42,001 nucleotides of DNA from Nanobdellota archaeon (lineage in GTDB: Archaea > Nanobdellota > Nanobdellia > Woesearchaeales > GW2011-AR9), in NCBI GenBank assembly GCA_038045005.1, contig JBBSYZ010000008.1, positions 1 to 42,001 of the forward strand. Direction: 5' to 3'. The notes below the pieces were generated by a model. The model was not told where the DNA came from. It did not search any database and saw nothing but the letters and a program-made list of their open reading frames with translations. Within the stretch, counting starts at the first letter, position 1, and the number at the start of each line of letters is the position of its first letter. Position numbers and translations under genes: made by a program. This document shows, one piece after another, positions 84 through 35,860 of this stretch.

Positions 84-167
84 CAAATAGATTATTTATT
101 CTTAGTGCCACCGTCGCATTCATAAAGGCAAATGCCTTTAGACGCGACGTTGTCTTCATTACATTAC

Positions 168-340
168 GCCACCGTCGCATAATCCGGTATTGCGCAGGTC
201 TTGAATAAACTTTTTAAAAAAAAGTTTAATCAAAAACCTCTATGAAGAGAACCTGTTCCTTCGGGAATTCTCGGTTCAAACGAGAAACTGCGTTTCTCAC
301 CCAGAAAAACGCAGTTTTTCTGAATGTCCGAGCGGTGGCG
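168..340 (+). tRNA. tRNA-Ser(TGA) with two introns (206-249 at 37/38; 281-326 at 59/60)
   Basis: Acceptor GCCACCG/CGGTGGC+G; anticodon stem CAGGT/ACCTG with loop CT-TGA-A; long variable arm; T arm CTCGG-TTCAAA..T-CCGAG; TTCA/TGAA BHB helix. Confidence 0.92.
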
Positions 341-483
341 CTTTTTTTATTGTTTGTTTTGGATCTAAAACACCGCAGCTCTGCTGGGGTTGGATTTTTT
401 ATTCCTAATCCAGTATCCTTTCGGTAAAGAGCAAGAACATCCTAACAAACTTTAAAAAAGAATCCATATTAGAATTCTAAAAT

Positions 484-586
484 ACGGCTGTGGTCTAGTG
501 GTTTGATCCGAGCTTCCCAAGCTTGTGGCCCGGGTTCGATTAGCTGAATGCTATTAATGCACAGCTCGATTTTCCCGGCAGCCGTA
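484..586 (+). tRNA. tRNA-Gly(CCC) with T-loop intron (about 541-572)
   Basis: Acceptor ACGGCTG/CAGCCGT+A; anticodon arm CGAGC-TTCCCAA-GCTTG; T stem CCGGG/CCCGG interrupted by a 32-nt hairpin. Confidence 0.88.
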
Positions 587-594
587 CTTTGCCA

Positions 595-659
595 GCGCAA
601 GAAAACTGACAAAAATCAGTTTTCTGCGCAGAAATGTGGTATCTTCCACATTTCTTGCG
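595..659. mobile_element. Bulged twin-hairpin micro-insertion with GCG duplication
   Basis: Two overlapping hairpins; removing 598-659 restores GCCAGCGTCGCAT, identical to 706-718. Confidence 0.7.
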
Positions 660-705
660 TCGCATACACAAAATGAGTACGCATTTTGGTCGCGACTTGG
701 CTCAC

Positions 706-926
706 GCCAGCGTCGCATAATCCGGTAGTGCGGCAGTCTCGAAAGCAACTTTTGGAAAGTTGCATCAAAATGGGGGCATAAAGCCCACCAAGAGTTAACT
801 GCTCCCTCTGGGATTCCCGGTTCAAACAAATGGTTACGCGCATTTGATACGCAAGAGCGGGTTAGGCATAAAGCCTAACGCACTGCGGATTAATGCGTAA
901 TCATTCTGAAAGTCCGGGCGCTGGCG
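706..926 (+). tRNA. tRNA-Ser(CGA) with two introns (744-796 at 37/38; 827-912 at 59/60)
   Basis: Acceptor GCCAGCG/CGCTGGC+G; stem GCAGT/ACTGC with CT-CGA-A; variable arm TCCCTCTGGGA; T arm CCCGG-TTCAAA..T-CCGGG. Confidence 0.92.
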
Positions 927-1003
927 CTTTTTTTTTACAACCAGCTTTTATCACCACATATTTTAAATACCATGCATTTTTCTTCATTGTGGAGGTGTCT
1001 ACT

Positions 1004-1411
1004 ATGACATATTATGAAACTTTGTTTCCGGTGATATTTTTAGCCGGAAGGATTATAGTCGGAGGATATTATCTTTTGAGCGCCGGCCATCATTTTCTCA
1101 AATTAGATATGCTGACGCAATATGCAAAATCTAAGAAAGTGCCGCTGGCAAGAGAGGCAGTACTGTTTTCCGGATTGCTTTTGCTGCTGGGAGGAGTTAG
1201 TGTCCTGCTGGGAGTCTATCCGCAAGCAGGAGTTCTGCTGTTAGTTCTATTCTTGACCGCGGCATCATTCAAGATGCACGATTTTTGGGCGGTGCCGGAA
1301 GAGCAGAAGATGGCTGAGAAGATGAATTTCCTGAAGAATATGGCTCTTCTTGGATCGGCATTGATGTGGCTGGCGATACAGACCCCTTGGGCTTTTAGCC
1401 TAACGATTTAA
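1004..1411 (+). CDS. DoxX family membrane protein
   Basis: SD GGAGGTG before ATG 1004; four hydrophobic segments; H-D-F-W and 'NFLKNMALLG' DoxX/SURF4 motif. Confidence 0.85.
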   Translation: MTYYETLFPVIFLAGRIIVGGYYLLSAGHHFLKLDMLTQYAKSKKVPLAREAVLFSGLLLLLGGVSVLLGVYPQAGVLLLVLFLTAASFKMHDFWAVPEEQKMAEKMNFLKNMALLGSALMWLAIQTPWAFSLTI

Positions 1412-1473
1412 TTTTATTTTTAATTTTATTTTTTAAAATTTATTAGGCCATAAATACAAGCAAAAAATGAAAA

Positions 1474-1660
1474 ACCCAGTCGCCCCAAGGGGCGGGGTAT
1501 CTGTAACAATATACCCTAAATATTTGGGCGCCTTGGTTTTTCGTCCAGAAAACATATATGAATGATTTATTTCATCCCAATCACCGCAAGCACACAATGA
1601 AGCAAAGACTTCATTGGTGCGCCAGTAAAATCGTTGTTTTACTGTGCGCGGAGGGGTATG
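1474..1660. repeat. REP-like hairpin cluster (hairpin + GGGGTAT); one copy interrupted by a twin-hairpin insertion at 1590-1649
   Basis: ACCCAGT-CGCCCC-AA-GGGGCG-GGGTAT (1474-1500); TCCCAATCACCGCAA[insert]GCGGAGGGGTATG (1575-1660); lies between convergent genes. Confidence 0.65.
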
Positions 1661-1673
1661 TTTTCTGAAATCA

Positions 1674-2738
1674 TCACAGCTTCAATCCTTCTTCCGCCAA
1701 TAATTGTCTCTGCCATTTCCTCAGGCAATCGGTTTTGTTAGCAGAAGCGATCTCGCTCATCTGTTCCTTGTTGATGATCAAATGCCCTTTGATGCCAATC
1801 TTGTCGGCTGCTTTCAGCTGCAGTTCATTAAGCTGTTCAAACAGGTCTTTCTGCTGCTGGGAATACCTCTTTTTTTCTTTGATTTGGATATCTACCGGCT
1901 CTCTATTCCCTTCCTCCACAGCAGCATAAAACTGAGCAGCTTCCTTCCGCACAATAGGATGAACTCCCCGCAGATTTTCCCATTGCGGCGGATGGAGAGA
2001 ACATTCACGCAGATGATTGTTGTTGATTATGAAATGCGACGGCCGATCAACTCTCTTAGCCAATTTCTGGCGGAGAAGAAACAATTTTTTGAAAATGCCC
2101 AGCTGTCCGGGAGAAAAAACTTTTACGCCGCGGACATCGATGAAAGCCTGTTCGTTATAACTAAAATCTGCCCGCTCCAGCACTGCAAATTCTTCTTCGG
2201 CCCAGGACCAGCGCCCTTTCTGCTGCAGTTCCTTTTTGAAAATGTCGCGAAGCTGGATCAAATATTGAGTGTCTTTTGCCGCATAAGAAAGCATTTTAGT
2301 ATCCAGCGGCCTTTTGGTCCAGTCTGCCATCTGGTATTTCCGCTCTTTTTCAATGCTAAAATATTCTCTCAGCAGATCGCCGAGGCCCAGCTGCTTTTTT
2401 CCCAGCAATAAAGCGGCCAGCTGCGTGTCAAAAACATTTCTGGGCCGGCATGAAAACTGTTCGTGAAGAATCCGGAAATCGAAACTCACGTCATGGAATA
2501 TTTTCTGAATGTTTTTATTTTCAAATATATCTGCCAGGGGCTGGATTTCCTTCATGACCAATACATCAATTATCCAGATTTTATCCAGACTGGAGATTTG
2601 AATCAAAGTGATGTAAGCTCCGTAATGATGGAGATTATTTTCGCATTCCAGATCCACTGCCAGATCAGCAGCGGAATTCCATTCCCGCACCGCTTCGTAG
2701 AGCGCATCTTTGGTATCTACATAAGTAAATGAAACCAT
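1674..2738 (-). CDS. rnd: Ribonuclease D-like 3'-5' exonuclease with HRDC domain
   Basis: DEDDy motifs DLECE, FHDVSFD, YAAKD; DWTKRPL motif; C-terminal HRDC-like 'RQKLAKRVDRPSHFII'. Confidence 0.88.
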   Translation of the reverse strand: MVSFTYVDTKDALYEAVREWNSAADLAVDLECENNLHHYGAYITLIQISSLDKIWIIDVLVMKEIQPLADIFENKNIQKIFHDVSFDFRILHEQFSCRPRNVFDTQLAALLLGKKQLGLGDLLREYFSIEKERKYQMADWTKRPLDTKMLSYAAKDTQYLIQLRDIFKKELQQKGRWSWAEEEFAVLERADFSYNEQAFIDVRGVKVFSPGQLGIFKKLFLLRQKLAKRVDRPSHFIINNNHLRECSLHPPQWENLRGVHPIVRKEAAQFYAAVEEGNREPVDIQIKEKKRYSQQQKDLFEQLNELQLKAADKIGIKGHLIINKEQMSEIASANKTDCLRKWQRQLLAEEGLKL

Positions 2739-2951
2739 AGCCCCAATATCTGATAAATATATATAAATATATGGCGGGTTTTTATTAAAATTAAGAGTAA
2801 TATCGTCAGGATAGGTTTCAGGTGGGTGGGGATGAAACTCAATGAAGGGGAATTGAAACCTGCCGGTGAATTCATCCGGAAGCAGATTTGGAATAATTGA
2901 TGGGAAGAAGGAATTTCAAAAATAAGCAGTGAAAAGTAAGGAATAAAAAAG

Positions 2952-3111
2952 TGCCCCGGCCGGGATTCGAACCCGGGTCACCGCCTATCCTTGGTTTCCC
3001 ACGAAAGGGCAGTATGATAGTTTGTCCCCAGACAAACTTTACATATCTGTTTGTCTTGGTCCGGATAGTGTCAATAAACCAGCAAAGATTTATCGTCTAC
3101 ACCACCGGGGC
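2952..3111 (-). tRNA. tRNA-Glu(TTC) with three introns (3066-3096 at 15/16; 3022-3060 in the D loop after GG; 2987-3001 at 37/38)
   Basis: Spliced sequence GCCCCGGTGGTGTAG-TCCGG-ACTATCATACTGCCCTTTCG-AGGCGGTGACCCGGGTTCGAATCCCGGCCGGGGCA folds as a canonical archaeal tRNA-Glu; each intron has a BHB-like junction. Confidence 0.88.
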
Positions 3112-6443: not shown

Positions 6444-6643
6444 GGCCCCATAGCTCAGCCTGGTTCAGAGCGCTGGTCTTATACGACCATTAATGGCACA
6501 ATTTAACCAAACCATTAATTCCGCTTGGAAAGCCAGAGGTCCTGGGTTCAAAACAAATGTCACGCCATTTGCGAGGCGGAGAGATTTCGCAGGTGCTCAA
6601 TCCCAAGTAATCGTGACAATTGGTGAAAGTCCCAGTGGGGCCA
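6444..6643 (+). tRNA. tRNA-Ile(TAT) with two introns (6484-6530 at 37/38; 6553-6629 at 59/60)
   Basis: Acceptor GGCCCCA/TGGGGCC+A; D arm GCTC/GAGC; stem CTGGT/GCCAG with CT-TAT-A; T arm CTGGG/CCCAG; anticodon call assumes the canonical intron position (BHB helix is weak). Confidence 0.75.
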
Positions 6644-7846: not shown

Positions 7847-8032
7847 TGCGGTAGCGGGGACTTCCGCGGCATTTCCTGCCTTTCGAACCCCGGTCACAGC
7901 CTCATTACAGACTTTTACAATCTTTCGTCAAGGGGGGACTAAGGAGTAAACTCCGAAGGTCGCCCGCTTTTTACGAGATTTTTTGCAAAAATCTCTGGCA
8001 AGGCCGTATACTAACCACTATACTACTACCGC
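7847..8032 (-). tRNA. tRNA-Gly(GCC) with two introns (7903-7995 at 37/38, 93 nt; 7861-7881 at 59/60)
   Basis: Acceptor GCGGTAG/CTACCGC+A; stem CGGCC/GGCTG with TT-GCC-A; BHB helix TTGC/GTAA; T arm CGGGG/CCCCG. Confidence 0.9.
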
Positions 8033-8665: not shown

Positions 8666-8822
8666 CCCCCCTTAGTTTAGCGGCTAGAACACTCGGCTGT
8701 AGAAACTCTTTAGAATTGTCACCGATGACTGAAATGAAAAAGAGTCAGCCAGTAGTCACCGAGGAATCCCCGGTTCGAAAAAACAACAAACCAATTGTTG
8801 TCTGAAAATCCGGGAGGGGGGA
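8666..8822 (+). tRNA. tRNA-Tyr(GTA) with two introns (8703-8757 at 37/38; 8780-8808 at 59/60)
   Basis: C1-G72 acceptor CCCCCCT/AGGGGGG+A; stem CTCGG/CCGAG with CT-GTA-G; short variable loop typical of archaeal tRNA-Tyr. Confidence 0.92.
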
Positions 8823-8978: not shown

Positions 8979-9123
8979 GCCCTGGTAGTGTAGTGGCCTA
9001 GCATGGGGCCCTGTCGTAATCATTTGGGGGTATGGCCTAAATGATTTGGAGAAAGGCCCCGACCCGGGTTCGAATGTGGTTGGGAGAGGTTTCACAATCA
9101 GTAAGAAAATCCCGGCCAGGGCG
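8979..9123 (+). tRNA. tRNA-Asp(GTC) with two introns (9017-9053; 9075-9109)
   Basis: Acceptor GCCCTGG/CCAGGGC+G; stem GGGCC/GGCCC with CT-GTC-G; T arm CCGGG/CCCGG. Confidence 0.92.
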
Positions 9124-9129
9124 TTCCTT

Positions 9130-9266
9130 GGGCCGGTAGCTCAGCTTGGTTGAGCGCTTGACTTTTAAGCAAGCGAACAAAGAGATCAAGAGGTCAGGGG
9201 TTCAAATGGTTTCCGAAACTCGGCAAACTGCCTGGATACGGAAACTTGAATGTCCCCTCCGGCCCG
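9130..9266 (+). tRNA. tRNA-Lys(TTT) with two introns (9168-9184; 9207-9252)
   Basis: Acceptor GGGCCGG/CCGGCCC+G; stem CTTGA/TCAAG with CT-TTT-A; BHB helices CTTT/AAAG and TTCA/TGAA. Confidence 0.92.
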
Positions 9267-11032: not shown

Positions 11033-12838
11033 ATGGCTGAAGTTTACCTTAACTCCAAATTCGTAGGAATGGTTGAAAATCCGCCCAGTTTTATTTCTGA
11101 AGTCAAAGATTTGCGGAGGAAGGGCGCCATCTCTGAGGAAGTAAGCGTCTATTACGACGCGGAAGCGCAGGAAGTTCACCTTGCCTGTGATGCCGGAAGA
11201 GCACAGCGGCCGCTGATAATCGTCAAAGAAGGAAAATCACTGCTTACAGAAAAATATCTTAGACAGCTCGGCGAGGGAGAAATTACCTGGCACGATCTGA
11301 TCAGGCAGGGCGTCATCGAATATCTTGATGCCGCTGAAGAAGAAAACGCTTTTGTCGCTTACGACGAAGCAGAACTCACTCCGCAGCATACCCATGTCGA
11401 AATTACTCCCGGATCAATCTGCGGGATTACCACCTCCTTAGTACCTTTTGGAAACTACAACCAATCATCCCGTCTTATCATTGGAAGTAAAAACCAAAAA
11501 CAGGCCTTGGGATTTTACGCTTCTAATTATCACTTGCGCATGGATATGGATTCAAATCTTCTCCATTACCCGCAATATCCTATTGTAAAAACAAAAGTCC
11601 ACGAAATCATTGAATATGAACAGCACCCTTCAGGACAAAATATGATTGTTGCGGTTATGAGCTACGACGGCTACAACATGGAAGACGGAGTAATACTTGG
11701 CAAGGCATCAGTTGAACGCGGCCTAGCAAGAAGCACTTATTTCAGACCCGTAGAGACGCAGGAACTGCGGTACTCCGGCGGATTAATCGACGAGGTTTCC
11801 GTTCCTGATAAAGATGTAAAAGGGTACCGGAGCGAACACGACTACCGATTTCTGGAGGGAGATGGAATTATTTATCCTGAAGCTAAAGTTAATGAAGGAG
11901 ATGTAGTTATCGGGCGAACCAGTCCGCCGCGATTCTTAAACAGCATGGACGAATATAATCTAGCTGCCGCTACCCGGCGCGAAAGTTCTGTGAGTTTGAA
12001 ACATGGAGAGAGAGGCGTAACTGACTTTGTAGTCCTTACTGAAAACGAAGAAGGGAATAAATTAGTCCAGGTGCGCCTGCGAGATGAAAGAATTCCAGAA
12101 ATTGGGGATAAATTCACCAGCCGGCACGGTCAAAAAGGAGTTACCGGAATTTTAGTGCCGGCCGAGGATCTTCCATTTTCTGAAAGCGGAATAACCCCTG
12201 ACGTAATTTTCACACCGCACGGGATTTCTTCAAGAATGACGGTTTCTCATCTGATTGAACTTATCGGCGGAAAAGTAGGAGCATTGGCCGGAAGATATGT
12301 TGACGGAACTTTATTCGAATCTGAAAAAGAAGAGGATCTGCGGAAAGAATTGCTCAGTTTGGGATTTAATGGGAATGGCACGGAAATATTCTATGATGGT
12401 AGAACTGGAAAACAGATGCTCGCCAGAATTTTCGTCGGAAATATGTACTATTTACGATTGCGCCACATGGTCGCTAACAAAGTGCAGGCGAGAGCGCGCG
12501 GCCCTATACAGTTATTGACCCGGCAGCCCACCGAAGGTAAAGCTAAAGAAGGGGGGCTTAGATTAGGTGAGATGGAGAAGGACACTTTTATCGCTCATGG
12601 GGCAAGCCTGCTCTTGAAAGAAAGATTTGACTCTGATAAAATTACCGTGCCGGTCTGTGAAAAGTCGGGACTGATGGGATATTATGATCCCCGTAAAGGC
12701 GGAAGGGCCATATCAACTATTTACGGAGAGAATGCTGAAATGTCTAACATAGAAATAAGTTATGCCTTCAAGCTGCTGCTTGATGAAATAAGAACTTTGG
12801 GTATTTATCCTAAATTACATTTAAAAAGCAAATATTAA
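11033..12838 (+). CDS. rpoB1: RNA polymerase subunit B' (Rpo2C)
   Basis: GYNMED, GDKFTSRHGQKG, GGLRLGEME motifs. Confidence 0.97.
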   Translation: MAEVYLNSKFVGMVENPPSFISEVKDLRRKGAISEEVSVYYDAEAQEVHLACDAGRAQRPLIIVKEGKSLLTEKYLRQLGEGEITWHDLIRQGVIEYLDAAEEENAFVAYDEAELTPQHTHVEITPGSICGITTSLVPFGNYNQSSRLIIGSKNQKQALGFYASNYHLRMDMDSNLLHYPQYPIVKTKVHEIIEYEQHPSGQNMIVAVMSYDGYNMEDGVILGKASVERGLARSTYFRPVETQELRYSGGLIDEVSVPDKDVKGYRSEHDYRFLEGDGIIYPEAKVNEGDVVIGRTSPPRFLNSMDEYNLAAATRRESSVSLKHGERGVTDFVVLTENEEGNKLVQVRLRDERIPEIGDKFTSRHGQKGVTGILVPAEDLPFSESGITPDVIFTPHGISSRMTVSHLIELIGGKVGALAGRYVDGTLFESEKEEDLRKELLSLGFNGNGTEIFYDGRTGKQMLARIFVGNMYYLRLRHMVANKVQARARGPIQLLTRQPTEGKAKEGGLRLGEMEKDTFIAHGASLLLKERFDSDKITVPVCEKSGLMGYYDPRKGGRAISTIYGENAEMSNIEISYAFKLLLDEIRTLGIYPKLHLKSKY

Positions 12839-19952: not shown

Positions 19953-23210
<3,258 letters not shown>

Positions 23211-33854: not shown

Positions 33855-33978
33855 GCCCCCGTCGTCTAGCCTGGATAGGACGCGAGCTTGCGGTCAGGAA
33901 CGACAAAAAGCTTGAAGCCGGAGTTCAAAATCAGCGGCTGCTGAAATCAGATGCTGGATGAAATTCTCCGCGGGGGCG
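33855..33978 (+). tRNA. tRNA-Arg(GCG) with two introns (33894-33908; 33930-33964)
   Basis: Acceptor GCCCCCG/CGGGGGC+G; D loop AGCCTGGATA; stem CGAGC/GCTTG with TT-GCG-G; T arm CGGAG/CTCCG. Confidence 0.9.
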
Positions 33979-35520: not shown

Positions 35521-35860
35521 ACCCAATCGGAGCAGAGCTCCGGGGTATGAATCAAAATCCCCACAGCAAGCTGTGGGGTATGAAATGTAACTACAGCTTT
35601 GCTATTTAGCGTGGGGATTTTGGTGCAAAAAGGGATAGATTTCCCTTTTGCACAGAAGGACTTTGTCCTTCTTGTGTTGCTTTCGTATCCCCACTGCAAG
35701 CAGTGGGGTATACTCATCAACAATCAATATTGGGTTTTTGGTACATTCCTTGGGTCTAATTGCATCGCAGTAGAACTGCGGGGTACATGAAATACAACAT
35801 GGATTGTATTTCAGTACTAAAAATCAATAGTTTTTGATTTTTATGTATGTGACCCAGCGG
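35521..35860. repeat. Cluster of REP-like hairpins (..GGGGTAY) with a twin-hairpin insertion at 35623-35676
   Basis: Copies at 35521-35547, 35557-35581, 35687-35711, 35766-35786; additional bulged hairpin at about 35816-35848. Confidence 0.8.

What the first reader, a model, noticed from the sequence alone, without database searches (positions are those of the whole stretch)
120..3060. The same bulged-hairpin module recurs singly in tRNA leaders and inside tRNA introns
Seen: TC-a-TAAAGGCA/TGCCTTTA-GA (120-142); AC-a-CAAAATG/CATTTTG-GT (666-690); CC-a-AGACAAAC/GTTTGTCT-GG (tRNA-Glu intron 3022-3060, minus strand); the mirror form TAC-TAAAAATCAA/TTGATTTTTA-t-GTA at about 35816-35847. The Ser(TGA) T-loop intron (281-326) can fold either as twin hairpins or as one long hairpin. 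Inference: the micro-elements may be the raw material that creates or enlarges tRNA introns and are tolerated because EndA splices them out, which would link a DNA parasite to intron gain.
Basis: inference. Interest (0 to 1): 0.8.

Follow-up and report, generated by a model that had tools for sequence, protein, structure and literature searches.

The report
Twin-hairpin mobile element invades tRNA introns
The hairpins seen beside and inside the tRNA genes of this tiny archaeal genome are three different things, one of which is a small mobile twin-hairpin DNA element that in related genomes has landed inside tRNA introns, showing one way such introns grow.

Summary
All four hairpins exist and fold as described, but they are not one module. 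A covariance model of the one real repeat family recognises only the 'mirror form' at 35816-35847 and none of the three tRNA-linked hairpins.

(1) 598-657 and 35786-35845 are copies of a 60-nt twin-hairpin element ('THE'). It is found in 16 of 16 genomes of the genus and in 27 of 40 other genera of the family. It is flanked by a duplicated dinucleotide that is the reverse complement of its own central dinucleotide (49 of 55 copies).

(2) 120-142 and 666-690 lie in a conserved block inserted into the 5' end of tRNA-Ser genes: copy of nt 1-13, hairpin, antisense, spacer, true 5' end. It is most likely a leader, not an intron.

(3) 3022-3060 is a complete 39-nt BHB intron in tRNA-Glu, present in 1 of 15 genus genomes.

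THE sits inside T-loop introns in 6 of 40 sampled relatives' copies, with clean filled and empty orthologous alleles. It therefore enlarges introns. No case of THE creating an intron was found, and its mobilising enzyme is unknown.

The parts
598..657 (.). Twin-hairpin element (THE) copy 1. Sequence plan: CAAGAAAACTGA-loop-TCAGTTTTCTG / central CG / CAGAAATGTGG-loop-CCACATTTCTTG. It is flanked by CG (596-597) and CG (658-659). It is inserted into the upstream copy (U) of the tRNA-Ser(CGA) 5' 13-mer.
   Evidence: BLAST copies in 16 of 16 genus genomes. R1 hits 595-629 (+) and 626-660 (-), 52-53 bits. Removing the element and one CG restores GCCAGCGTCGCAT, identical to 706-718 (sequence).
35786..35845 (.). 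THE copy 2 (flanks TA, centre TA). It is intergenic.
   Evidence: R1 hits 35783-35817 (+, 32.5 bits) and 35814-35848 (-, 41 bits); this copy was not in the training set. Flanks TA/TA/TA. No ORF of 90 aa or more overlaps it.
35623..35677 (.). Weaker, short-stemmed THE-like twin (flanks TG, centre CA).
   Evidence: R1 hits at 20.4 and 16.5 bits; sequence.
1590..1649 (.). Weak THE-like twin in the spacer between ORFs 893-1411 and 1674-2738.
   Evidence: R1 hits at 20.0 and 12.3 bits; identical-scoring copies on two other contigs.
107..167 (+). tRNA-Ser(TGA) upstream block: U = copy of tRNA nt 1-13 (107-119), bulged hairpin (120-142), C = antisense CGCGACG (143-149), spacer (150-167).
   Evidence: Sequence; fold; direct and inverted copies of the 5' 11-mer found upstream. 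A TATA box TTTATAAA at 75-82 lies about 24 nt before U (sequence). The same architecture is seen in relatives.
168..340 (+). tRNA-Ser(TGA) with a canonical-site intron (about 206-249) and a T-loop intron 281-326 at 59/60.
   Evidence: Acceptor and T-arm scan. Strict hBHBh' for 280|281...326|327: H = TTCA/TGAA, outer helix 5 bp, inner helix 14 bp.
484..586 (+). tRNA-Gly(CCC) with a T-loop intron. It lies 4 nt upstream of the U copy of tRNA-Ser(CGA).
   Evidence: read by eye.
591..705 (+). tRNA-Ser(CGA) upstream block: U split by THE (591-597 and 660-665), bulged hairpin 666-690, C = CGCGACTTGGC (691-701), spacer 702-705.
   Evidence: Sequence; fold; orthologous blocks in G002, G009, G013 and G016.
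706..926 (+). tRNA-Ser(CGA) with a canonical-site intron (about 745-796, two hairpin modules) and a T-loop intron 827-912 (86 nt).
   Evidence: Relatives' contigs replace 745-796 by 12 nt, and one contig replaces 827-912 by 29 nt. The G007 orthologue has no T-loop intron. The 3' part is 99% identical over 113 nt to tRNA-Ser(GCT) on contig C15.
3022..3060 (-). tRNA-Glu(TTC) intron 2, 39 nt, between nt 19 and 20 of the D-loop. H = exon GTCC paired with intron GGAC.
   Evidence: Contigs of close relatives in 3 runs join 3019 to 3059, skipping 39 nt. All 14 other genus genomes with a match read TCCGGACTATC. Coordinates computed.
2952..3111 (-). tRNA-Glu(TTC) gene with three introns: 3096-3066 (15/16), 3060-3022 (19/20), 3001-2987 (37/38).
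6444..6643 (+). tRNA-Ile(TAT) with a 77-nt T-loop intron that lacks THE. It is the orthologue of the THE-bearing introns of G007, G006 and G003.

Best explanation
The four hairpins belong to three unrelated classes.

(A) A 60-nt twin-hairpin, MITE/REPIN-like mobile element (THE). It consists of two imperfect hairpins with conserved feet (CA-AGAAA...TTTCT-G and C-AGAAA...TTTCT-TG) around a central dinucleotide. It inserts at a dinucleotide that is the reverse complement of that centre and leaves the dinucleotide on both sides. I infer that it moves through a folded single-stranded form in which the centre pairs with the flank, so that base pairing guides target choice. The enzyme is unknown. 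Because it is short and tightly folded, it is tolerated in spacers, leaders and the interior of BHB introns. There it is transcribed and discarded with the intron by the splicing endonuclease EndA.

(B) The hairpins at 120-142 and 666-690 are the core of a 55-61-nt block that was inserted, with duplication, into the first 13 nt of tRNA-Ser genes. The downstream copy is the functional 5' end. The block is a structured 5' leader removed by RNase P.

(C) 3022-3060 is an ordinary but very young BHB intron. Its 'bulged hairpin' is the inner helix of the splice motif.

Shown: dispersal, insertion polymorphism, the dinucleotide rule, intron presence and absence, BHB geometry. Inferred: the single-stranded route, splicing, RNase P processing, and the origin of the Ser block.
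For: THE dispersal and context:
- 16 of 16 genus genomes by BLAST.
- 61 R1 hits at E<=1 in G000, which I grouped into 26 loci; 20 of the 26 have no overlapping ORF of 90 aa or more.
- 27 of 40 other genera of the family.

THE structure:
- Compensatory changes in stems and boxes: 171 both-side-changed cells against 60 in shuffles.
- The rows of that alignment were pre-selected for pairing, so the independent test is the following one.

THE dinucleotide rule:
- 55 copies were anchored only on inner conserved sequence.
- 5' flank = 3' flank in 50 of 55; 5' flank = reverse complement of the centre in 52 of 55; all conditions met in 49 of 55. Seven different centres occur.

THE filled and empty sites:
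- C20:23965 (filled) against the paralogous flank at C15:53177 (empty); dinucleotide TG.
- tRNA-Ile(TAT) intron reads GCGCT-CA-TTGCATTC in G011 and G015. In G007 and G006 it reads GCGCT-CA-{element}-CA-TTGCATTC; G003 is also filled.
- The window U copy is restored to the exact 13-mer by removing the element and one CG.

THE in introns:
- 6 of 40 sampled relatives' copies lie in T-loop introns with intact TTCA/TGAA BHB helices.

Ser block:
- The same U-hairpin-C-spacer-D plan occurs in 6 genes of 5 genomes, one of another genus. It is absent from 5 orthologous genes in G006 (two genes), G007, G014 and G017.
- The TATA box sits 23-28 nt before U, the same distance at which it sits before the tRNA in genes without the block.
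- U decays (G7A in G009; one C lost in G016), while D stays complementary to the 3' acceptor strand.
- No strict BHB brackets the block.
- RNase P RNA is present (131 bits).

Glu intron. An EndA gene of 202 aa is present.
Against: - No RNA data: no listed run is on record as RNA. Splicing, the RNase P cut and transcription of THE are therefore all inferred.
- The candidate enzymes do not track THE. Y1 (IS200/IS605-type) transposase is found in 9 of 28 THE-positive and 4 of 13 THE-negative genomes. Serine recombinase is found in 11 of 28 and 2 of 13. Eight Y1 loci carry no R1 hit. G005 has 20 BLAST matches to THE and no Y1.
- The flanking dinucleotide could instead be a 2-bp target duplication made by an unknown DDE enzyme. 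That would leave the complementarity to the centre unexplained, but it is not excluded.
- The relatives' copies examined were the best BLAST matches, not a random sample. Several intron copies are orthologous or were copied together with their intron, so independent insertions into introns may number only 2-4.
- All genomes are metagenome assemblies, and repeats can be misassembled.
- The three tRNA-linked hairpins share the C-A-stem-G foot with THE. A very old common origin cannot be excluded with sequences this short.
Confidence: 0.68

Rival explanations
1. One reading: all four hairpins are diverged solo copies of one bulged-hairpin parasite, which both creates and enlarges tRNA introns.
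For: All share the foot C-A-stem-G, with one more flanking pair. That signature is found in 6 of 26 tRNA-region hairpins against 44 of 1172 elsewhere. THE really does enter introns. The Glu intron is new and consists of such a hairpin plus flanks.
Against: R1 gives no hit at E<=10 for three of the four. Arm similarity is not above the null (0.10-0.26). After removing signatures forced by BHB or anticodon geometry the enrichment is p = 0.078. No other copy of the Glu-intron stem exists in 16 genomes. The leader hairpin occurs only at tRNA-Ser genes.
Confidence: 0.1
2. The tRNA-Ser upstream block is a hidden intron: the upstream copy is the true 5' exon, and the block is removed by EndA through a relaxed motif.
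For: The promoter is spaced for a transcript that starts at the upstream copy. The minimum-free-energy folds pair the upstream copy with the 3' acceptor strand. D-arm introns are commonly missed by annotators, according to the abstract of preprint 10.64898/2026.10.13.758758.
Against: Equal splice positions in two identical copies would need a self-complementary 4-nt helix, and none exists in the 13-mer (sequence; one search finds no strict BHB). The upstream copy has lost acceptor complementarity in G009 and G016. In G000 Ser(CGA) it is split by THE.
Confidence: 0.08
3. THE is not selfish DNA but a functional RNA or DNA motif, such as a protein-binding twin hairpin, terminator or processing signal, kept by selection wherever it occurs.
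For: The feet are strongly conserved and the stems carry compensatory changes. It is mostly intergenic. It is widespread in the family. No transposase tracks it.
Against: Copy number varies from 0 to 39 R1 hits per genome. There are filled and empty alleles at orthologous and paralogous sites, with a duplicated dinucleotide. It occurs inside introns, inside a decaying tRNA fragment and nested beside another copy. It looks the same on both strands, which fits a DNA-level element.
Confidence: 0.12
4. The Ser block is the scar of an integrase-mediated integration of a virus or plasmid into the tRNA-Ser 5' end. The direct repeats would be attL/attR cores and the interior would have been lost.
For: A direct repeat of the tRNA end with a 5' tRNA fragment upstream is the pattern described for Caldiarchaeum (abstract of PMC3293823).
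Against: The interior has the same small size and plan (hairpin plus antisense) in 5 genomes and 2 isoacceptors, with compensatory stem changes. Independent deletions would not produce that. No integrase gene is adjacent in the window: the Pfam scan of the two neighbouring ORFs gave DoxX and a 3'-5' exonuclease.
Confidence: 0.1

Closest known systems
Archaeal BHB tRNA introns at non-canonical positions, and their 'transposition' between tRNA genes in Thermoproteales (Sugahara 2008 and Fujishima 2010, as cited in section 2.5 of preprint 10.64898/2026.10.13.758758). Heavy tRNA disruption in DPANN with alpha4-type EndA carrying the L3 loop (passages of PMC5829648).
   Same: - Multiple introns per gene at 15/16, 19/20, 37/38 and 59/60.
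- Strict hBHBh' motif at the T-loop site.
- Related introns at the same position in different tRNAs.
- A single alpha-type EndA gene.
- Standard tRNA finders fail: 0 genes in the window.
   Different: Here a separate, dispersed DNA repeat is nested inside the introns. Orthologous introns at one site belong to several unrelated sequence families within a single genus.
REP / REPIN elements of bacteria (PMC3116915; only the search listing and the start of the abstract were seen).
   Same: Short, imperfect palindromes arranged as an inverted pair; tens of copies; mostly extragenic; the hairpin is conserved by compensatory change.
   Different: No RAYT-like Y1 gene tracks the element. The host is archaeal. 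The two hairpins abut around a 2-nt centre that matches the flanks. Copies occur inside tRNA introns.
IS200/IS605-family single-strand transposition, with target and cleavage sites read by pairing with an internal guide next to a bulged hairpin (recalled knowledge, from no call).
   Same: Bulged sub-terminal hairpins. The flank and the element end carry the same short sequence. That sequence is complementary to an internal 'guide'. There is no long duplication.
   Different: The guide is only 2 nt. One shared guide serves both ends. There is no coding capacity. There is no association with Y1 transposase genes. Membership is not supported; the resemblance is mechanistic only.
Classical MITEs (terminal inverted repeats plus a short target duplication).
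   Same: 7-nt terminal inverted repeats CAAGAAA/TTTCTTG, an apparent 2-bp duplication, about 60 nt long, non-coding.
   Different: The duplicated dinucleotide varies between subfamilies and always complements the element's centre. A DDE cut-and-paste mechanism does not predict this.
tRNA 5' fragment left upstream of an intact tRNA gene by a mobile-element integration in Caldiarchaeum (abstract of PMC3293823).
   Same: A copy of the tRNA 5' end lies upstream of the functional gene.
   Different: The spacing is 42-48 nt rather than 1.8 kb. The interior is a conserved hairpin plus an antisense copy of the tRNA end. No recombinase gene is present.

Membership tests
Archaeal BHB tRNA intron (for 3022-3060 and 281-326) | Removing it restores a canonical tRNA sequence. 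| tested here: met
   3022-3060: all 14 other genus orthologues, and relatives' contigs in 3 runs, lack exactly these 39 nt and read TCCGGACTATC. 281-326: removal gives the T-loop TTCAAAT between complementary T-stems.
Archaeal BHB tRNA intron (for 3022-3060 and 281-326) | Two 3-nt bulges separated by a 4-bp helix at the splice sites. | tested here: met
   281-326: strict hBHBh' (H = TTCA/TGAA, outer helix 5 bp, inner helix 14 bp). 3022-3060: the HBh' form was read by eye (H = GTCC/GGAC, bulges GG|A and AA|A). H is perfect only after intron 1 is removed, and there is no outer helix. My strict scanner did not list it.
Archaeal BHB tRNA intron (for 3022-3060 and 281-326) | Excised by the splicing endonuclease. 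| not testable with these tools
   An EndA gene is present (PF01974, 103.9 bits, 202-aa ORF). No run on record as RNA is listed.
BHB intron (for the tRNA-Ser upstream blocks 107-167 and 591-705) | A BHB motif bracketing the segment at positions that give the mature sequence. | tested here: not met
   There is no strict BHB at matching positions. The 13-mer contains no self-complementary 4-mer, which identical splice positions would require (sequence).
REP/REPIN (RAYT-mobilised) | A dispersed, mostly extragenic pair of imperfect palindromes. | tested here: met
REP/REPIN (RAYT-mobilised) | A cognate Y1 (RAYT/TnpA) gene in the same genomes, flanked by the repeats. | tested here: not met
   Y1_Tnp is found in 9 of 28 THE-positive and 4 of 13 THE-negative genomes. 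None of 8 Y1 loci has an R1 hit at E<=0.1.
IS200/IS605-derived non-autonomous element | Target and end sequences complementary to an internal guide beside a hairpin; no true duplication. | tested here: inconclusive
   Flank equals the reverse complement of the centre in 52 of 55 copies, and one copy of the dinucleotide is present at empty sites. This is compatible with the feature, but 2 nt cannot separate it from a 2-bp duplication.
MITE (DDE transposon derivative) | Terminal inverted repeats, a fixed-length target duplication and a related autonomous element. | tested here: inconclusive
   TIRs and a 2-nt repeat are present. No autonomous partner was sought beyond Y1 and serine recombinase.
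THE family (for the four hairpins of the finding) | A significant score against the half-unit covariance model R1. | tested here: not met
   Met only by 35814-35848 (41 bits). 120-142, 666-690 and 3022-3060 give no hit at E<=10 with filters off.

The most novel reading that the evidence does not exclude
THE, the tRNA-Ser block and the new tRNA-Glu intron could be products of one insertion logic. In that logic a hairpin element carries an antisense 'guide' to its target and ends in a copy of that target: X - hairpin - antisense X - ... - X. X would be 2 nt in THE, 11-13 nt in the Ser block and 7 nt (GACAAAC) in the Glu intron. Any insertion of this kind brings sequence complementary to the neighbouring exon. 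It would therefore build the helices of a BHB motif automatically and could be spliced at once. That would be a concrete DNA-level route for the gain of archaeal tRNA introns, a question that a 2026 preprint on Asgard tRNA genes leaves open.
Probability: 0.15. Interest if true: 0.85.

Novelty: new variant of a known kind. Interest (0 to 1): 0.62.

Why it matters
How archaeal tRNA introns arrive and grow is unsettled. [quoted passage not shown]

This lineage carries record titles naming Nanoarchaeota, Nanoarchaeia or Woesearchaeota, i.e. DPANN. It offers three directly comparable events within one genus:
- a small mobile hairpin element caught in filled and empty states inside an otherwise unchanged BHB intron;
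- a 39-nt intron present in 1 of 15 genomes, with exact boundaries;
- a duplicative insertion into the 5' end of tRNA-Ser genes.

The data show that introns can act as safe landing sites for DNA parasites and so grow by insertion. The element itself shows an unusual rule, a central dinucleotide complementary to its flanks, that points to target choice guided by base pairing.

Practically, tRNA finders miss these genes: ARAGORN and Rfam at gathering score found none in the window. Rfam's tRNA model found 5 above its cut-off in the whole genome.

Tried and rejected
- ARAGORN (default) and Rfam at gathering score found no tRNA in the window. Rfam at E<=1 gave only a T-arm-like tmRNA fragment. I located genes with my own acceptor and T-arm scan. 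That scan misses genes with introns in the T-stem or acceptor stem, so the list of 24 is incomplete.
- A strict BHB scan found nothing bracketing the Ser upstream blocks.
- RNA evidence: no RNA holder is listed.
- Donor for the Glu intron: no other AGACAAAC...GTTTGTCT hairpin in 16 genus genomes. No direct or inverted 8-mer of the intron lies within 400 nt either side, so a local template-switch origin has no support. Genome-wide there are only scattered 11-mers.
- BLAST of 24 tRNA regions against the genome found no intron module outside tRNA genes other than THE.
- The strict pattern for the antisense plus 5'-end part of the Ser block was not found in 250 other genomes of the order, only 3 of them from the same family. 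The pattern is narrow, so this bounds little.
- Y1 transposase and serine recombinase as mobilisers: no association.
- Preference of THE for hairpin loops: flank stems of 5 bp or more in 31% of 55 copies, against 14% with shuffled partners (maximum 33% in 200 shuffles). This is too weak to claim.
- Similarity of the Ser(TGA) T-loop intron's two AGAAA...TTTCT hairpins to THE: not above the null.
- Literature: searches listed no paper describing a hairpin repeat in DPANN tRNA introns. These cover only the held open-access library, and supplements were not read.

Full report
**Setting**

The window is contig C8 of a 497-kb, 41-contig, 72%-complete genome. It encodes archaeal split RpoB and RpoA'. 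The closest RpoB relatives carry record titles naming Nanoarchaeota, Nanoarchaeia or Woesearchaeota, and some are labelled 'uncultured Methanosarcinales' by their submitters.

ARAGORN and Rfam at gathering score find no tRNA in the window. Rfam's tRNA model finds only 5 above its cut-off in the whole genome. My own scan for an acceptor stem plus a T-arm that tolerates an insertion found 24 plausible tRNA genes, 10 of them in the window and nearly all interrupted. This fits passages of PMC5829648 on DPANN lineages that have alpha4-type EndA, many disrupted tRNA genes and incomplete tRNA predictions. The genome has one EndA gene (202-aa ORF) and an RNase P RNA (131 bits).

**Check of the observation**

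All four hairpins are present and fold as drawn, with the single bulged base. The T-loop intron of tRNA-Ser(TGA), 281-326, can fold in two ways: long hairpin -20.0 kcal/mol, twin hairpins -15.5 kcal/mol. That intron is a textbook hBHBh' at position 59/60 (H = TTCA/TGAA, outer helix 5 bp, inner helix 14 bp).

**The real repeat family (THE)**

Aligned copies give the plan NN | CA-AGAAAnnnnn-loop-nnnnnTTTCT-G | N'N' | C-AGAAAnnnnn-loop-nnnnnTTTCT-TG | NN. The stems and the boxes change in a compensatory way. Those rows were pre-selected for pairing, so that count is not independent.

A covariance model of the half-unit (R1) gave these results:
- 61 hits at E<=1 in the genome, which I grouped into 26 loci. 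Of these, 20 have no overlapping ORF of 90 aa or more.
- Hits in 27 of 40 other genera of the family, from 0 to 39 per genome.

**The dinucleotide rule**

I anchored copies only on the conserved inner sequence, which gave 55 copies. The two flanking dinucleotides are identical in 50. The 5' flank is the reverse complement of the central dinucleotide in 52. All conditions hold in 49. Seven different centres occur.

Empty sites contain one copy of the dinucleotide:
- A paralogous pair within this genome: C15 flank ...CCCCT-TG-CCGACG, against C20 with the element and a second TG.
- An orthologous pair in the tRNA-Ile(TAT) T-loop intron, described below.
- The window copy itself. Removing 598-657 and one CG turns GCCAG-CG...CG-TCGCAT into GCCAGCGTCGCAT, which is the 5' 13-mer of tRNA-Ser(CGA).

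The element therefore inserts at a dinucleotide matched to its own centre.

This resembles guide-directed site choice in IS200/IS605 elements, which I recall from no call. The candidate enzymes, however, do not track the element:
- Y1 transposase: 9 of 28 THE-positive and 4 of 13 THE-negative genomes.
- Serine recombinase: 11 of 28 and 2 of 13.
- Eight Y1 loci carry no R1 hit.

**THE inside introns**

Among the 40 best-matching copies fetched from relatives, six lie inside T-loop (59/60) introns of complete tRNA genes whose TTCA/TGAA BHB helix is intact:
- tRNA-Ile(TAT) in G007, G006 and G003;
- two other tRNAs, in G011 and G003;
- a class II tRNA in G009, where the element sits at a second site in the intron.

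A seventh copy sits in an intron-like sequence that is not in a tRNA (L026).

For tRNA-Ile(TAT) the orthologous intron reads GCGCT-CA-TTGCATTC in G011 and G015. In G007 and G006 it reads GCGCT-CA-{element}-CA-TTGCATTC. The intron therefore pre-exists and the element enlarges it by 62 nt. In this genome the orthologue (6444-6643) has no THE. Across the genus the same 59/60 site holds at least four unrelated intron sequences. The same intron-plus-THE composite in different tRNAs suggests that introns are copied between genes.

**tRNA-Glu intron (3022-3060)**

The gene (3111-2952, minus strand) has three introns: 15/16, 19/20 and 37/38.

Contigs of a close relative in three runs join 3019 to 3059 and skip 39 nt, with 2 nt of ambiguity. 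All 14 other genus genomes with a match lack it, while 11 of 15 have intron 1 and 7 of 15 have the canonical intron. It is therefore a recent gain, or much less parsimoniously many losses.

Its splice motif is an HBh' form. The exon sequence GTCC pairs with the intron sequence GGAC once intron 1 is gone, and the bulges are GG|A and AA|A. The bulged hairpin is the inner helix. This was read by eye; my strict scanner did not list it.

No donor copy exists in 16 genomes and there is no local template.

**tRNA-Ser upstream blocks (120-142, 666-690)**

Both Ser genes here show the same plan, as do Ser genes in G002, G009, G013 and G016 (G016 is another genus). The plan is:
- U, a copy of tRNA nt 1-13;
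- a bulged hairpin;
- C, the antisense of nt 1-11 (shorter in Ser-TGA here);
- a 4-18-nt spacer;
- D, the real 5' end.

Five orthologous genes in G006 (two genes), G007, G014 and G017 lack the block. The TATA box lies 23-28 nt before U, the same distance at which it lies before the tRNA in genes without the block. The block (hairpin, C, spacer and a 13-nt copy) was therefore inserted into the gene's first 13 nt.

U has lost acceptor complementarity in G009 and G016 and is split by THE here, whereas D is intact. No BHB brackets the block. Identical splice positions in two identical copies would need a self-complementary 4-mer, which the 13-mer lacks.

The most likely reading is a structured leader removed by RNase P. 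Hairpin stems differ between genes by compensatory changes (CAAAATG/CATTTTG, CAAAACG/CGTTTTG, TAAAGGC/GCCTTTA). Among 24 tRNA genes of this genome, only the two Ser genes have the arrangement. One other gene, on C34, has an upstream degenerate 5' fragment followed by intron-like sequence.

**Are they one module?**

- R1 gives no hit at E<=10 for the three tRNA-linked hairpins.
- Their arms are no closer to THE arms than those of 2396 background arms (0.10-0.26).
- The C-A-stem-G foot occurs in 6 of 26 tRNA-region hairpins and 44 of 1172 others (p = 4.7e-4). Three of the six follow from BHB or anticodon geometry, which leaves 3 of 26 (p = 0.078).

The resemblance is therefore one of form, not demonstrable common descent.

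**Comparison and novelty**

BHB introns at many positions, intron families shared between tRNAs, and disrupted tRNA sets in DPANN are all known. Hairpin repeats of the REP/REPIN and MITE kinds are also known (listing only).

What I did not find in the held literature (searches; supplements not read) is the following:
- a dispersed hairpin element nested in archaeal tRNA introns with filled and empty alleles;
- the flank and centre complementarity rule;
- the duplicative Ser block.

I class the whole as a new variant of known kinds.

**Caveats**

- All genomes are metagenome assemblies.
- The copies sampled from relatives were the best BLAST matches, not a random sample.
- The insertions into introns may represent few independent events.
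- There is no RNA evidence.
- The mechanism and the enzyme of THE are inferred.

Noticed in passing
window 344-404: The spacer just 3' of tRNA-Ser(TGA) matches a 60-nt stretch in G009:C17:11538-11597 (80% identity). That stretch lies directly beside a Y1 transposase fragment at 11610-11804. It may be a remnant of an IS200/IS605 end. Close relatives' contigs join across 348-444; what lies between is not known.
   Followed up: partly
window 813-925 and G000 contig C15:3304-3416: The T-arm, the 86-nt T-loop intron and the 3' end of tRNA-Ser(CGA) are 99% identical over 113 nt to those of tRNA-Ser(GCT) on another contig, although the 5' halves differ. This points to gene conversion or intron copying between isoacceptors.
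   Followed up: partly
window 6444-6643 and orthologues (L213-L228): The same 59/60 site of tRNA-Ile(TAT) holds at least four unrelated intron sequences, 27 to about 150 nt long, within one genus. This suggests intron replacement rather than slow divergence.
   Followed up: partly
G000 contig C34:2328-2437: Upstream of a tRNA gene (2438-2612) lies a degenerate copy of its first 19 nt. It is followed by sequence resembling the start of the T-loop intron family (AAATGTCACGCC...). It looks like a relic 5' exon with an intron.
   Followed up: no
L026 (G007:C37:3801-4261): A copy of the T-loop intron family sequence, itself carrying THE, lies outside any recognisable tRNA gene. The intron sequence may therefore also exist as a free-standing element.
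   Followed up: no
G000 C22:8122-8187, C22:20221-20286, C41:3783-3848; also C15:8277 with C29:5461, and C20:23887 with C15:53112: Several THE copies share identical 40-nt flanks on both sides, so they are nested in larger repeats. Contigs C15 and C31 end inside a THE copy, which suggests that the element breaks assemblies.
   Followed up: no
window 19956-23210: The DNA gyrase B gene carries an intein between its conserved domains (Pfam Intein_splicing, residues 457-882).
   Followed up: no
window 7848-8032 (-), 8666-8821, 8979-9122, 9130-9265, 33855-33977: Five further intron-bearing tRNA genes, each with a 21-46-nt insertion in the T-loop. None is found by ARAGORN's default run or by Rfam at gathering score. 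Their anticodons and remaining introns were not worked out.
   Followed up: no
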